From Escherichia coli (GTDB lineage Bacteria; Pseudomonadota; Gammaproteobacteria; Enterobacterales; Enterobacteriaceae), in assembly GCF_044324785.1 (NCBI RefSeq), contig NZ_CP172127.1: 64,000 nucleotides of DNA; one strand, 5' to 3'. Shown here piece by piece: positions 54,801 through 57,800 of this stretch. A program made the position numbers. Each line of letters starts with the position of its first letter. Positions within the stretch are counted from its first letter, which is position 1.

Positions 54801-57800
54801 CTTCGGTCAGCATCCCCGACGTTTGAACTGTTTTATCAGGAGTATCAATCCCTAAGATTAAAATCTGTTTTTAAATTTGAACCAAGATTTGAACAACTTT
54901 TAACAAGACTGAGCTTTAGAAAACAATCAATTCTCAGAAAACAACAATACAGGGTTAAATCGCAATTACTGGAGAGACTGGGGAATGTGTTGTTTTTCAC
55001 GTCGCTTTATAACCAGGGATGTTTAGAGGAGTTTATAAATGCACTTGTGGAAAAGGAGGACATTTATCTGAAAATGTCCCCTGGGGAGGAAAAGGTGAAA
55101 GCACACCAGAAAATGGTTAACTACATTGAAGCGTTCTGCAACAAAATGACGGAAAAATACCTGATGCCCGCAGCAAGCAGACACTACAAAAAGAAGAAAA
55201 TCGCCAGGAGCGAAAGTGGTGAAAGTTAATCCAGTCTACCGTACAGAATCAGTTGTTCCAGAATAGCCTGCTGTGTTGTTTTCCGCTCTCTGGTCAGTCT
55301 GTCCAGAGCGCTTTTTGCGGATGGCGATATCTTTACGTTGATTTGTACCCGTTTATCTTTTTTTCCATCGATAAACTGTTTTCTGAATGCATTGTGCATC
55401 TTGTCGAAAAATCTTTCTTTTGCAGCGAATCCTAGGTGAAATTCTTTTGGCGTCAGTAAACAGGGTGTGTCTGTGGGGAATAACATTTTTAGTAAAACTA
55501 CAATGGCAATATATCTTTCGTTATCATTTACAGGATTAAACCAGGAAAGATATGTGGGTGAGATACGTGCATCAATATATTCCCATGCCCATTTCAGTTG
55601 TTCGGTATTCTTTTTAAGCCATTTGGCTTCGTTTCTCTTTTCGAGTCCCAGCCAGTTTTGATGCATTATTGAGATAATCCGATCTGCTTCCCCATAAAGG
55701 ATTAACGCATTAATCCATTTCCCTATAACATTCAGTCGTGTTTCATGACTTGAAGGAATAATTGTCATGGGGTTATCCTTCATAACGATCACCCCCTTCA
55801 AGGCAGAGTTGAACTCAGATTCATTATTAAGTTTAAGTTTTTCGGGAACTGTATGAGACATAATTAACCAGAACCAGAATGCTGCAATTTCATTTTTTCT
55901 GATCCATTCAGGTATGTGATTATCTGCCAGATTATTATCATTCAATAAATGCTCAGTTGTTTTATTTTTCCAGTCATATCTATTCACGTTATAACCGCCT
56001 TTATATTGTTTCATCTGATTACGCCTCAATCGTTTTCTTTTCTGGTGATTTTCACCATCACATGTCAGTTGTATATGCAAGGGGATCAATAAAAATATCA
56101 CCCTGCAAGCACTTCAAAGCTGATTATGGGGATATTCTAGAACTATTCACAAAACTATTCCAGACATATCAAGAACTATTTCTTGACCTATTCATAATAA
56201 AATAAAACATGCTATCAACTACGGCTCATATTCTCCTTGGGGGTGTCGTTGTACTGTTCGACTGTTCTTGTGGTCAGATTAACAATCTGAAGAGTAAAAG
56301 CGACAGTAATCTGTCTGTTATAGTGGCGATAAAAACACTGAATGCGCATCCTGTATGTGAAATCCTGTCATGTAGAGCAGTAAGCAATGACAGACATGCA
56401 TGTTATATGTGAAGGGGGCCGGGAGACGACATAATCAGTATGGCTGTCATTCTGGTTGTAAAACGCGATCACTTTCCGGGGGTAAAAGATGATATGGAGG
56501 TTGACAAACGGTTTGCTTCGGATTGTCTTTTCTGGGGCCTGAAATACGAGGGCAGAAAAATAATTCCAGAGTAAATCTGCTCTGTTTTTAGGACAGAAAA
56601 CTCCATGCTGGCTGTAAAAGTGAAAAATTAACACCCAGTATGTATGGAAGTCTGAAGATGTTGAGAATGTCGGTATGATACTATATACACATATTTTACT
56701 AAGTATTTTTACTAAGCATTTCAGTAAGTGTTATACACGTATTTTCTACTAAGTGTTTTACCAGACATACACGTGTTTTCATAAACAGCCCTATAAGTGT
56801 TTTCATTAAGCATTGCTGTACACATTGCTTTGTCTGAAACACATCCAGTTTAGTAAATCTTTACGTTAGCTAAAATCAGTTTAAAGCTGCTGTAAAACCT
56901 TTCTGTTTAAGCAATCAATCTGCTATTCGATTTTACTGATGTTGCGTTTAACCTTTTCTGAGATTTCGAGTTTCGACGTTAGCATGAGAAAAGTATCTTT
57001 ACGCTAAATCAACCCGAACTTTCCTGAAGTAATCTGACGTTTTTTTCGATGTGCTTACGACGATTCTGTTAAACGACTTTCTGGATGTTTTGATAACAAT
57101 CAGATTGAGGCATTAACGATTCCTGACGTTTTCTTTTCCGTGTAAGGTCATTCTTTTTGTCATGAGGTTTCTTCTTGCATTGCGAAAGTGTGATGAACGG
57201 TTTTGGTGTTTTTGATTCAGATAAGGTTTACGTTATCGATGGTTAATCGTTTTTATGGTGCGTAGTGAAACGTAACTTTTTCAGGATGAGAAAATCGATT
57301 CTGATGTTGGTGATTTTTGTTCTTGTGGCGGGGTTTATCTGTAAACAGGTTTTAAACGTGTCATTCACATCCGTGATTGAGTTGTGTGATTAAGCTGTAG
57401 GTTTTGGGGTTGTTGTTGATTTGCATTACCAGGAAGCGTTCTGGTTGCGTTTCTGGTGTTTTGTTCGAATGTTCTGTGGATCCTTTTCCCTTCTGACTTT
57501 TCTCGTTGTCCATGTCGTTTTTAAATCCATTCGCTGTTCTTGAGTGTTTTTACCCTGCGTGTAGAATTATCTTTTCGTTCCGGGATGGTTTGTTCCGTTT
57601 CAATCACTCTTAATCAGAGAGTTGTAGCATTGCTCAATGCCGGATGCCGTAAAGTTTTACCGCGGTGATTAATGATGTGAAGTCAATCCAAATCAACGGA
57701 GATCTCTCATCATGAATCAACCAATACACAATGCTTACTGGTTATCCCGTTTTGAAAGTATTCTCAACAGTGCCCTGGCGCAGCACCGTGCCGTCTCGTT

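What the first reader, a model, noticed from the sequence alone, without database searches (positions are those of the whole stretch)
56102..57711. A 1.6-kb AT-rich stretch without ORFs upstream of the Gp2-like gene
No ORF of 60 aa or more lies here on the + strand; the two small ORFs at 56209-56634 look spurious. The region contains local repeats (actaag-type motifs around 56690-56780) and is T/G-rich on the + strand. It could be a long leader, a small-RNA locus or a silenced regulatory region for the downstream Gp2-like gene.
Basis: seen in the sequence. Interest (0 to 1): 0.4.

Follow-up and report, generated by a model that had tools for sequence, protein, structure and literature searches.

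The report
Control region of an island replication-like gene
This gene-free, AT-rich 1.6 kb is most likely the promoter and unusually long leader of a rolling-circle-nuclease-like gene carried by a common E. coli genomic island; it is not a known small-RNA gene, and its cis elements could help explain how such islands are switched on.

Summary
Window 56015/56102-57711 has no credible ORF, has 33-43% GC, and is G/T-rich on the + strand. It carries a direct-repeat array at 56684-56825.

The stretch is real island backbone. Similar DNA occurs in 1,876 of 5,426 complete E. coli genomes, up to 8 copies each. It lay just upstream of the same 243-aa Gp2-like gene in every locus inspected, and is usually unannotated.

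It matches no Rfam family and has no overall fold or covariation signal. It evolves slightly faster than synonymous sites of the neighbouring gene, and its middle is replaceable.

The functional parts sit at the two ends:
- An invariant 13-mer, ATAAYTCCAGAGT (56560-56572).
- About 100-125 bp to its right, a conserved extended -10 promoter pointing at the Gp2-like gene (56676-56684).
- Direct repeats that differ between lineages.
- A terminator-like hairpin (57427-57465).
- An invariant hairpin burying the gene's Shine-Dalgarno sequence and AUG (57664-57722).

The 13-mer/promoter pair, at fixed spacing, recurs upstream of Gp2-like genes only 37-52% identical in other genera.

Best reading: a promoter plus a roughly 1-kb leader that keeps an HUH endonuclease/AlpA operon tightly off. 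Main rival: a nick-and-bind origin for that endonuclease. Transcription is untested.

The parts
56102..56555 (-). Variable left part: the upstream and 5' region of the minus-strand cargo gene (55226-56014/56101). It is not part of the conserved backbone.
   Evidence: It is >=92% identical only in islands carrying the same cargo gene (L003, L004, L007, L009) and unalignable in the others. The small ORFs 56209-56412 (+) and 56368-56634 (-) have no Pfam hit.
56560..56572 (+). Invariant 13-mer box ATAATTCCAGAGT (consensus ATAAYTCCAGAGT). It sits at the sharp left edge of the conserved backbone. Its reverse complement reads ACTCTGGAATTAT, an extended -10-like element pointing left.
   Evidence: Unique in the 64-kb window. 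It occurs exactly once, in + orientation, upstream of the Gp2-like gene in 14 E. coli-type loci (L001, which is the same DNA as the window, among them) and in Providencia (L021, L022), L023, L026 and L028. L018, L014 and L020 are one mismatch off and L027 two. The leftward-promoter reading is by eye.
56567..56584 (.). Small terminator-like hairpin overlapping the box (CAGAG-N8-CTCTG, then TTTTT).
   Evidence: The right arm is poorly conserved in other islands, so its significance is doubtful.
56661..56684 (+). P1, a candidate sigma-70 promoter of the extended -10 type: TGaTACTAT at 56676-56684, with TTGAGA at 56661-56666. Predicted + strand start is about 56691, giving a leader of about 1,020 nt to the Gp2-like ATG.
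   Evidence: TGnTAYTAT is conserved in all E. coli copies. The equivalent (GAT)TGGTAATAT(A) lies 97-105 nt after the box start in six other lineages and 124-125 nt in E. coli. The same core lies upstream of K-12 yfjJ and yagK. The yagK element coincides with a published RpoD gSELEX promoter.
56684..56825 (+). Direct-repeat array: 6x TAAGYRTT interleaved with 4-5x TAYACACRT. Copy number varies between islands.
   Evidence: Expansions and deletions of whole units are seen in L003/L007 and in L002/L008/L014. Arrays of different sequence follow P1 in Providencia and L023.
56826..57426 (+). T/G-rich, weakly structured, fast-evolving leader or spacer. Module A runs to 57226. Module B (57226-57559) is replaceable.
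   Evidence: Composition. Fold z-scores -1.0 to +2.1. Many indels are not multiples of 3. Identity is 87%, against 91% at third codon positions of the Gp2-like gene. In L019/L020, and decayed in L015, module B is replaced by about 1.2 kb holding a 176-aa minus-strand gene.
57427..57465 (+). T1, a terminator-like hairpin with a 12-bp stem (-13.2 kcal/mol) followed by UUUUGUU.
   Evidence: One compensatory pair, A-U in 6 sequences against G-C in 5.
57540..57567 (+). P2, an alternative proximal promoter candidate (TTGAGT-16-TAGAAT).
   Evidence: Best consensus match in the interval. In the second haplotype group the -10 reads TAGGTT, so it is not well conserved.
57606..57622 (+). Small hairpin with an invariant AAUCA loop in the proximal leader.
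   Evidence: Two of five pairs change on both sides between the two haplotype groups. Energy is only -5 kcal/mol.
57664..57722 (+). Hairpin that pairs the Shine-Dalgarno GGAG and the AUG of the Gp2-like gene with an upstream arm. The 5' arm contains a mini-ORF, ATGATGTGA (57672-57680).
   Evidence: Energy -19.4 kcal/mol, z = -3.3, 0 of 200 shuffles fold as well. 16 of its 19 pairs never vary across 12 E. coli copies. Paired probability of the RBS is 0.79, above all 41 control genes. SD pairing is predicted in six further lineages, clearest in L021, L025 and L029. The mini-ORF was seen by eye.
57712..58443 (+). Gp2-like gene (YagK/YfjJ family, HUH endonuclease-like). This is the gene the region serves.
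   Evidence: PF11726 E = 2.9e-36 and PF23343 REP_ORF2-G2P E = 3.2e-10. H101, H103, Y213, K216 and K220 are invariant across the family. Weak hits to phage replication-initiator PHROGs.

Best explanation
The interval is the non-coding control region of the island's Gp2-like (YagK/YfjJ HUH endonuclease)-AlpA operon. It joins the leftward cargo gene's upstream region (56102-56555) to conserved backbone (56556-57711).

Proposed mechanism:
1. A sigma-70 promoter of the extended -10 type (P1, 56676-56684) fires rightwards. It lies 112 bp downstream of an invariant 13-bp box.
2. The transcript starts inside an array of direct repeats. These are probably binding sites for an island-encoded DNA-binding protein.
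3. It then crosses about 0.8 kb of weakly constrained, U/G-rich, weakly structured leader that includes a weak intrinsic terminator (T1).
4. It ends in an invariant hairpin that hides the Shine-Dalgarno sequence and start codon.

Together these layers keep a potentially dangerous DNA-nicking protein, and the excision regulator encoded downstream, almost silent until a signal arrives.

Shown here: the elements exist, and they are conserved in sequence and position across lineages and genera.

Inferred, not shown: that P1 is the promoter actually used in this island, that transcription traverses the whole kilobase, that T1 terminates, that the hairpin represses translation, and which proteins bind the box and repeats. 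The middle of the region is probably neutral filler rather than a functional RNA.
For: Conserved backbone: DNA similar to the interval is found in 1,876 of 5,426 complete E. coli genomes, with a median of 2 and up to 8 places per genome. The core from about 56551 onward is widely shared. In all 14 E. coli-type loci inspected it sat directly upstream of the Gp2-like gene, in a gap that PGAP leaves empty or nearly so. A second Gp2-like gene in L003 has a similar gap.

Not coding: indels are of many lengths not divisible by 3, there is no conserved ORF, and the small ORFs have no family hits.

Box and promoter:
- The exact 13-mer occurs once per locus in + orientation, in E. coli and in lineages whose Gp2-like proteins are only 37-52% identical to the window's.
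- The extended -10 element follows at 97-105 nt from the box start (124-125 nt in E. coli).
- A composite box-gap-promoter pattern scanned against metagenome contigs found 5 loci. Four carry a Gp2-like gene and then alpA downstream in the same orientation.
- The same promoter core lies upstream of K-12 yfjJ and yagK. The yagK copy coincides with the RpoD-holoenzyme SELEX promoter TTTAGA-16-TATAAT, flagged HNS, in PMC3946193.

Long upstream gaps are a family trait: 450-1,350 nt in nine distant lineages.

RBS hairpin: z = -3.3, 16 of its 19 pairs never vary, and the RBS is more paired than in 41 control genes. Across the five lineages tested the difference is modest (Mann-Whitney p = 0.03). SD pairing recurs in other lineages despite no sequence homology.

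T1 has a compensatory pair.
Against: - No transcription data were available for any copy. P1, T1 and P2 are consensus-level predictions in AT-rich DNA, where such matches are common. The scan found fewer promoter-like sites than shuffles did.
- In the L019/L020 variant a gene on the opposite strand sits between P1 and the Gp2-like gene. That is awkward for a continuous leader. It suggests the box and P1 have a role independent of distance to the gene.
- A closer promoter candidate, P2, scores higher in this window.
- Overall the region is less conserved than synonymous sites, so most of its length may do nothing.
- Cross-genus local alignments outside the short motifs are not better than shuffles.
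Confidence: 0.55

Rival explanations
1. The conserved left part is a cis-acting DNA origin for the adjacent HUH endonuclease, serving rolling-circle replication or mobilisation of the excised island. The invariant 13-mer would be the nick or recognition site. The lineage-specific direct repeats would be the protein's binding locus. The promoter would be part of an autoregulated origin-rep unit, as in rolling-circle plasmids.
For: - The Gp2-like protein keeps the HUH histidines and the YxxKxxxK tyrosine motif in every family member compared. It matches PF23343 and replication-initiator PHROGs.
- The box is invariant across genera while the repeats differ by lineage. From established knowledge of rolling-circle plasmids, which was not tested here, this is the classic pattern of conserved nic and variable bind loci.
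- Box and P1 remain intact in variants where a gene is inserted between them and the Gp2-like gene and where the upstream gene is co-directional (L026).
- Conservation begins sharply at the box.
- One preprint reports copy-number gain of an integrase and a Gp2-family gene in gut-passaged E. coli Nissle.
Against: - No conserved hairpin presents the box. The E. coli hairpin arm is not conserved, and the dyad in Providencia would leave a 2-nt loop.
- Single-strand folding shows no strong structures like those of filamentous-phage or plasmid single-strand origins.
- No similar DNA in 50,697 phage records, and only 4 plasmid records match.
- Both conserved motifs read equally well as a divergent pair of extended -10 promoters.
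- In Brenneria the repeats lie on the other side of the box.
- Nicking cannot be tested in silico.
Confidence: 0.2
2. P1 drives a separate long non-coding RNA of about 0.6-0.8 kb that ends at T1 (57427-57465), or at the bidirectional hairpin in the variant islands. This RNA would act in cis or trans, for example on Gp2-like/AlpA expression or through the island's ProQ/FinO-domain protein.
For: - A conserved promoter is followed by terminator-like hairpins before the Gp2-like gene in both architectural variants.
- T1 has a compensatory pair.
- A ProQ/FinO-family gene, a pseudogene in this copy, lies in the same island.
Against: - No Rfam match in the interval.
- Fold z-scores are about 0 over most of the stretch.
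- Pairs with double changes number 14, against 10.8 +/- 2.0 in shuffles (43 of 500 shuffles reach 14).
- The sequence evolves faster than synonymous sites, with large indels and a replaceable module.
- Compact lineages have only 166-320 nt between P1 and the gene.
- T1 is a weak stem with a poor U-tract.
Confidence: 0.1
3. Most of the stretch is neutral filler. It could be the remnant of a decayed gene or an old insertion that pushed the ancestral promoter away from the gene, persisting only because it hitch-hikes in a successful island. The gene would now be expressed from a proximal promoter such as P2.
For: - Identity (87%, with many gaps) is below that of third codon positions next door (91%).
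- Module B is dispensable and replaced in some islands. L013 lacks about 270 nt.
- P2 is the best promoter match in this window.
- K-12 relatives manage with leaders of 60-190 nt.
Against: - No protein similarity to the alternative cassette gene (tblastn) and no family hits for the ORFs.
- Bacterial deletion bias makes persistence of about 0.8 kb of useless DNA in thousands of copies unexpected. This is inference.
- Long upstream gaps recur in unrelated lineages.
- Blocks of near-invariance lie inside the stretch, for example 57226-57260.
- This reading explains the filler but not the box, P1, repeats or hairpin. It is compatible with the best explanation.
Confidence: 0.15

Closest known systems
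Upstream regions of E. coli K-12 yagK (CP4-6) and yfjJ (CP4-57)
   Same: Same protein family. The same promoter core, GAT(A/T)GGTAWTATA, and a degenerate box lie upstream. The yagK element is a published RpoD-holoenzyme binding site flagged HNS.
   Different: K-12 leaders are only about 60-190 nt. They have no T/G-rich kilobase and no TAAGYRTT array. The box is degenerate (11/13 or less). The upstream gene is co-directional.
Control region/double-strand origin of rolling-circle plasmids (pMV158/pT181 type; comparison from established knowledge, not tested)
   Same: An HUH initiator gene is preceded by a non-coding region with one highly conserved site, a set of direct repeats roughly 100 bp away, a promoter, and a leader that limits initiator synthesis.
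   Different: No hairpin-presented nick site. No antisense RNA promoter was found by eye or by PWM scan. The setting is a chromosomal island, and the region is about 1.1 kb rather than 0.2-0.3 kb. Nicking is unproven.
Intergenic region upstream of gene II in filamentous phages (from established knowledge)
   Same: A long ORF-free, T-rich stretch lies directly upstream of a gpII-like gene.
   Different: No DNA similarity to any phage record. There are no strong single-strand hairpins: z is about 0 over most of it. No packaging or morphogenesis genes lie nearby.
P4-type immunity leader (CI/C4 antisense RNA, IsrK)
   Same: A P4-like island context with alpA/vis-type regulator, and a long leader with possible premature termination.
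   Different: No match to the C4 or IsrK Rfam families or to any other family inside the interval. No convincing internal complementarity: only 7-13 nt imperfect matches.
AlpA-dependent antitermination at P. aeruginosa PalpB (PMC7969949, PMC9371919)
   Same: A conserved sequence lies just upstream of the -10 element, terminator-like signals sit in a leader, and an alpA-named gene is in the system.
   Different: The AlpA-binding element GGGACG-N5-GGTA is absent. The P. aeruginosa protein uses an N-terminal segment that forms a ring in the RNA exit channel plus a C-terminal HTH (residues 128-142). The island's AlpA is a 78-aa PF05930 HTH only.

Membership tests
Any Rfam RNA family (including C4/IsrK, IsrC, known leaders) | Covariance-model match | tested here: not met
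   cmscan of 53000-60000, both strands, E<=1. The only hit is PhotoRC-I at 19.9 bits (gathering score 45), inside the Gp2-like CDS. Nothing lies in 56102-57711.
Structured non-coding RNA (generic) | Folding energy below shuffles, and compensatory base changes | tested here: not met
   z-scores between -1.8 and +2.1 for windows starting 56650-57550 on both strands. Pairs with double changes: 14, against 10.8 +/- 2.0 in shuffles (43/500). The exceptions are three short 3'-proximal hairpins.
Protein-coding gene or pseudogene | Conserved reading frame, or similarity to a protein family | tested here: not met
   No conserved ORF and frame-breaking indels. No Pfam or PHROG hits. tblastn with the alternative-cassette protein found nothing in the window. 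A full blastx-type search was not run.
Sigma-70 promoter, extended -10 class (P1) | TGn followed by a -10 hexamer with A at position 2 and T at position 6 | tested here: met
   TGaTACTAT at 56676-56684. TGgTAATAT in L023, L026 and L028 and in four metagenome loci.
Sigma-70 promoter, extended -10 class (P1) | RNA polymerase binding and a mapped transcription start | not testable with these tools
   Only indirect: the homologous yagK element is an RpoD gSELEX site in K-12. No data exist for this island.
Intrinsic terminator (T1, 57427-57465) | Stable GC-rich stem followed directly by a U-tract | tested here: inconclusive
   12-bp stem with several G-U pairs, -13.2 kcal/mol, tail UUUUGUU. One compensatory pair.
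RBS-sequestering translational control hairpin | SD and start codon base-paired in a structure more stable than chance, and conserved | tested here: met
   Energy -19.4 kcal/mol, z = -3.3. 16 of its 19 pairs never vary in 12 copies. RBS paired probability is 0.79, above 41 of 41 controls. SD pairing is predicted in six further lineages. The effect on translation is not testable here.
Rolling-circle double-strand origin | Adjacent HUH initiator with intact catalytic motifs | tested here: met
   H101/H103 and Y213/K216/K220 are invariant. PF23343 hit.
Rolling-circle double-strand origin | Conserved nick sequence exposed in a hairpin loop or extrudable inverted repeat | tested here: inconclusive
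   A conserved 13-mer exists, but no conserved hairpin accompanies it.
Rolling-circle double-strand origin | Site-specific nicking, and replication dependent on the site | not testable with these tools
   Requires biochemistry or genetics.
Iteron/DnaA-type plasmid origin | DnaA boxes and IHF site next to iterons and an AT-rich unwinding element | tested here: not met
   TTATNCACA with <=1 mismatch: 4 sites in the region, 2 of them in the array. The whole window has 63, so there is no enrichment. No IHF consensus.
AlpA (P. aeruginosa type) antitermination site | ABE GGGACG-N5-GGTA between -35 and -10, and an AlpA with the N-terminal exit-channel ring | tested here: not met
   The motif is absent from P1. 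The island AlpA is 78 aa, HTH only.

The most novel reading that the evidence does not exclude
The invariant 13-mer and the lineage-specific direct repeats form the nick and bind sites of an origin used by the YagK/YfjJ-family HUH endonuclease. The endonuclease would replicate or mobilise excised CP4-type islands as single-stranded or rolling-circle intermediates. The G/T-rich kilobase would be the strand-specific zone next to that origin. This would give a whole class of 'cryptic prophage-like' enterobacterial islands their own replication or transfer machinery and a defined cis site.
Probability: 0.18. Interest if true: 0.7.

Novelty: new member of a known kind. Interest (0 to 1): 0.4.

Why it matters
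CP4-type islands carry Ag43, toxin-antitoxin, anti-restriction and defence cargo. They are present, often in several copies, in a large share of E. coli genomes. What switches them on, and how they move, is poorly understood.

This analysis gives the first concrete cis-element map for their most conserved unexplained gene pair, the HUH endonuclease-like gene and alpA:
- A 13-mer and a promoter at fixed spacing, which can be searched for across Enterobacterales.
- A repeat array.
- A ribosome-binding-site lock.

These are directly testable by reporter fusions, 5'-end mapping and nicking assays. If the box proves to be a nick site, the islands would be autonomous rolling-circle elements rather than inert relics.

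For annotation, about 1.1 kb that pipelines leave blank, or fill with spurious 80-aa ORFs, can be labelled as a regulatory region.

Tried and rejected
- Known RNA family: Rfam scan negative in the interval.
- Structured long RNA: sliding-window folding of both strands, RNAalifold on 12 copies and pair counting with shuffles found no global signal.
- Decayed gene: no conserved frame. tblastn with the 176-aa cassette protein of variant islands found nothing in the window. The 82-aa PGAP 'hypothetical protein' found in some copies is broken here and has no family.
- Curved or phased A/T tracts: Fourier analysis shows no peak near 10.5 bp.
- DnaA/IHF-type origin: no enrichment.
- Strand-asymmetric mutation as the cause of the G/T skew: C>T is 0.33 and G>A 0.30 per site, so there is no asymmetry under crude polarisation.
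- P. aeruginosa-type AlpA antitermination: the motif and the protein architecture do not fit.
- Antisense control RNA against the rep-like leader: no credible minus-strand promoter downstream of the hairpin (by eye and by PWM).
- Cross-genus alignment of whole intergenic regions: not better than shuffles. Only the short motifs are shared.
- Peptide-pattern scan of one genome per species: only 2 loci, because the 243-aa clade is essentially E. coli-restricted.
- Literature searches found nothing on this region, whether by gene names, island gene sets or sequence strings. Esr41 of O157 lies elsewhere, between z1181 and z1182.
- An attempt to locate the O157 Sakai copy, so as to use published sRNA tables, fetched the wrong region.
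Full report
**1. What is there**

Window 56102-57711 lies between a minus-strand cargo ORF and a 243-aa gene. The cargo ORF is 55226-56101; PGAP calls it 55226-56014 in the identical DNA of strain SCU-115. The 243-aa gene is at 57712-58443 and is annotated 'inovirus Gp2 family protein'.

- The interval contains only short ORFs without family matches.
- GC is 0.33-0.43, against 0.50-0.58 in the flanks.
- At 57050-57650 the + strand is strongly G/T-rich, with GC skew up to +0.37 and AT skew down to -0.46.
- The 'actaag' repeats are a real array: period 13 with 5.2 copies, six exact TAAGYRTT and four to five TAYACACRT, all in one orientation, in 56684-56825.

**2. Context**

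The window is E. coli, 100% identical to several chromosomes. The interval sits in a CP4-type island.

- To the left, on the minus strand: GTPase, DUF905, DUF932, anti-restriction, JAB/RadC, DUF987, YeeU and CbtA genes.
- To the right, on the plus strand: the Gp2-like gene, a hypothetical gene, an AlpA-type HTH, another hypothetical gene and a ProQ/FinO pseudogene.

The Gp2-like protein matches PF11726 (YagK_YfjJ_C) and PF23343 (REP_ORF2-G2P), and weakly matches phage replication-initiator PHROGs. Compared with K-12 YfjJ/YagK and homologues from other genera, it keeps an invariant H-x-H and an invariant Y-x-x-K-x-x-x-K. This is the signature of an HUH nicking enzyme.

**3. Distribution**

- DNA similar to the interval occurs in 1,876 of 5,426 complete E. 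coli genomes, with a median of 2 and up to 8 places per genome. Almost all places are chromosomal.
- Only 4 plasmid records and no phage record match.
- In all 14 E. coli-type loci inspected, the Gp2-like gene is preceded by a 1.45-2.1 kb (or longer) gap. PGAP leaves the gap empty, or fills it only with a 249-nt minus-strand 'hypothetical protein' or, in variant islands, a 176-aa gene. That small ORF is broken in this window.
- The 243-aa clade is essentially confined to E. coli.
- K-12 yfjJ and yagK lack the long gap.

**4. Conservation pattern**

Alignments show three things.

- 56102-56555 is shared only by islands with the same cargo gene.
- Conservation begins sharply at about 56556.
- The conserved part is modular and mosaic. 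Module A is 56553-57226. Module B is 57226-57559. In L019/L020, and decayed in L015, module B is replaced by about 1.2 kb holding a 176-aa minus-strand gene with no similarity to the window. Module C runs from about 57530 to 57711, and its last ~70 nt are almost invariant.

Indels of many lengths not divisible by three rule out a conserved reading frame. Pairwise identity of the conserved part averages 87%, with many gaps. Third codon positions of the adjacent gene average 91%. Taken as a whole, the stretch is not under purifying selection.

**5. Not a known or structured RNA**

- Rfam at E<=1 gives nothing in the interval.
- Sliding-window folding gives z-scores around zero on both strands for windows starting 56650-57550. 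The minus strand is exceptionally weakly structured.
- RNAalifold on 12 copies yields a covariation term of only -6.7 out of -107 kcal/mol.
- Pairs changed on both sides number 14, against 10.8 +/- 2.0 in shuffles.

Three short hairpins near the 3' end are the exceptions (section 7).

**6. Conserved cis elements at the left end**

I compared nine distant lineages of Gp2-like genes, 37-52% protein identity. They include Brenneria, Providencia and several metagenomic enterobacterial contigs. All have 450-1,350 nt ORF-poor gaps upstream, and in most of them alpA lies directly downstream of the Gp2-like gene.

The box:
- k-mer analysis found a 13-mer, ATAAYTCCAGAGT.
- It occurs exactly once, in + orientation, upstream of the gene in 14 E. 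coli-type loci and in L021/L022, L023, L026 and L028. L018, L014 and L020 have one mismatch and L027 two.
- In the 64-kb window it is unique, at 56560-56572, the very edge of the backbone.

The promoter:
- A second conserved element follows: (GAT)TGGTAATAT(A), or TGaTACTAT in E. coli. This is an extended -10 promoter pointing at the Gp2-like gene.
- Its distance from the box start is 97, 100, 101, 101, 102 and 105 nt in six lineages, and 124-125 nt in E. coli.
- A composite box-gap-promoter pattern found five metagenome loci. Four have a Gp2-like gene and then alpA downstream in the same orientation.
- The promoter core also lies upstream of K-12 yfjJ and yagK. In yagK it coincides with the 'constitutive' RpoD-holoenzyme SELEX promoter TTTAGA-16-TATAAT, flagged HNS, listed by Shimada et al. 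(PMC3946193).

Predicted leaders are 166-320 nt in compact lineages, about 800 nt in L023, 560-680 nt in the metagenome loci, and about 960-1,020 nt in the E. coli clade.

The reverse complement of the box reads ACTCTGGAATTAT. This is itself an extended -10-like element pointing left, so box and P1 may be a back-to-back promoter pair (by eye). However, the box is also exact in L026, where the upstream gene is co-directional.

**7. Elements downstream of P1**

- Directly after P1 comes the repeat array, which varies in copy number. Arrays of different sequence occupy the same position in Providencia and L023. In Brenneria the repeats lie on the other side of the box.
- At 57427-57465 a 12-bp hairpin followed by UUUUGUU resembles a weak intrinsic terminator. 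It has one compensatory pair.
- A second promoter candidate, P2 (57540-57567), is the best consensus match in this window but is poorly conserved.
- A small hairpin with an invariant AAUCA loop (57606-57622) has two compensatory pairs.
- A hairpin at 57664-57722 pairs the Shine-Dalgarno GGAG and the AUG with an upstream arm. Its energy is -19.4 kcal/mol, z is -3.3, and no shuffle of 200 folds as well. 16 of its 19 pairs never vary in 12 copies. The ribosome-binding site's paired probability, 0.79, exceeds all 41 control genes. SD pairing is predicted in six further lineages without sequence homology, clearest in L021, L025 and L029.
- The 5' arm of that hairpin contains a mini-ORF, ATGATGTGA (by eye).

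**8. Interpretation**

The most economical reading is a control region for a dangerous gene pair. It has a promoter with associated protein-binding sites, a long and mostly unconstrained leader with a possible attenuator, and a translational lock.

The main rival is that box plus repeats form a nick-and-bind origin for the HUH enzyme.
- For it: an invariant box with lineage-specific repeats, intact catalytic motifs, persistence of box and P1 when a gene is inserted downstream, and the sharp backbone edge at the box.
- Against it: no conserved hairpin presents the box, and both motifs read well as promoters.

The two models are not exclusive. Rolling-circle plasmids combine origin, promoter and leader control in one region (established knowledge, not tested here). 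A separate long ncRNA and pure filler are less likely, but neither is excluded.

**9. Limits**

- No transcript, protein-binding or nicking data exist for this region.
- Every promoter and terminator is a sequence-level prediction in AT-rich DNA.
- Haplotype structure means the compensatory changes represent only one or two events.
- The cause of the G/T skew remains unexplained. A crude test found no current C>T versus G>A asymmetry.

Noticed in passing
window 58183-58335 (inside the Gp2-like gene): The window's Gp2-like protein carries a low-complexity Ser/Pro/Asp/Lys-rich insertion of about 45-50 aa (RRTPFRKPTSSDARPSSDDTPLSGG...KKPGEAA). It is absent from K-12 YfjJ/YagK and from all distant homologues aligned. 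It accounts for the 243-aa length of the E. coli clade.
   Followed up: partly
L019 4613-5143 and L020 4983-5513 (variant islands); decayed in L015 2727-3259: In some islands the T-rich module B of the leader is replaced by a cassette with a 176-aa minus-strand gene (WP_000778605.1). It has no Pfam or PHROG match. By eye it has a Myb/SANT-like W-x-E-x-D-E...L motif. A bidirectional hairpin follows it. It could be a regulator inserted into the control region.
   Followed up: partly
L003 11123-12718: A second, more divergent YagK/YfjJ-domain gene in the same island follows yfjI. It is also preceded by a 1.6-kb ORF-free, T-rich (0.38-0.42 T) gap with no sequence similarity to the window's region. 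A long T-rich upstream gap may be a recurrent trait of this gene family.
   Followed up: partly
window 54276-56101: Two convergent cargo ORFs, 317 aa on + and 262-291 aa on -, overlap by 4 nt. They have no Pfam or PHROG match. They occupy the variable slot between the GTPase gene and the 13-mer box. Other islands carry a 407-aa, a 376-aa or other hypothetical genes there, so the slot behaves as a cargo hotspot bounded by the box.
   Followed up: partly
window 60444-60952 (minus strand; L001 16343-16851): A frameshifted ProQ/FinO-family gene lies in the island's right arm. IS1, IS256, ISL3 and other transposase fragments follow it, and no integrase is visible next to ynjB. This island copy looks degraded and immobile.
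   Followed up: no
window 58135-58202: A weak Rfam hit to PhotoRC-I (19.9 bits, gathering score 45, E = 0.12) lies inside the Gp2-like coding sequence. It is almost certainly chance.
   Followed up: no
L006 9035-9125 (K-12 yagK leader, minus strand): The yagK leader has a perfect 10-bp inverted repeat, TACTCTTACT...AGTAAGAGTA, just downstream of its promoter. It contains the AGTAAG motif that is also repeated in the window's array. It may be a related operator or RNA hairpin.
   Followed up: no
literature (bioRxiv 10.1101/364505): [quoted passage not shown] This hints that such modules can amplify in vivo.
   Followed up: no
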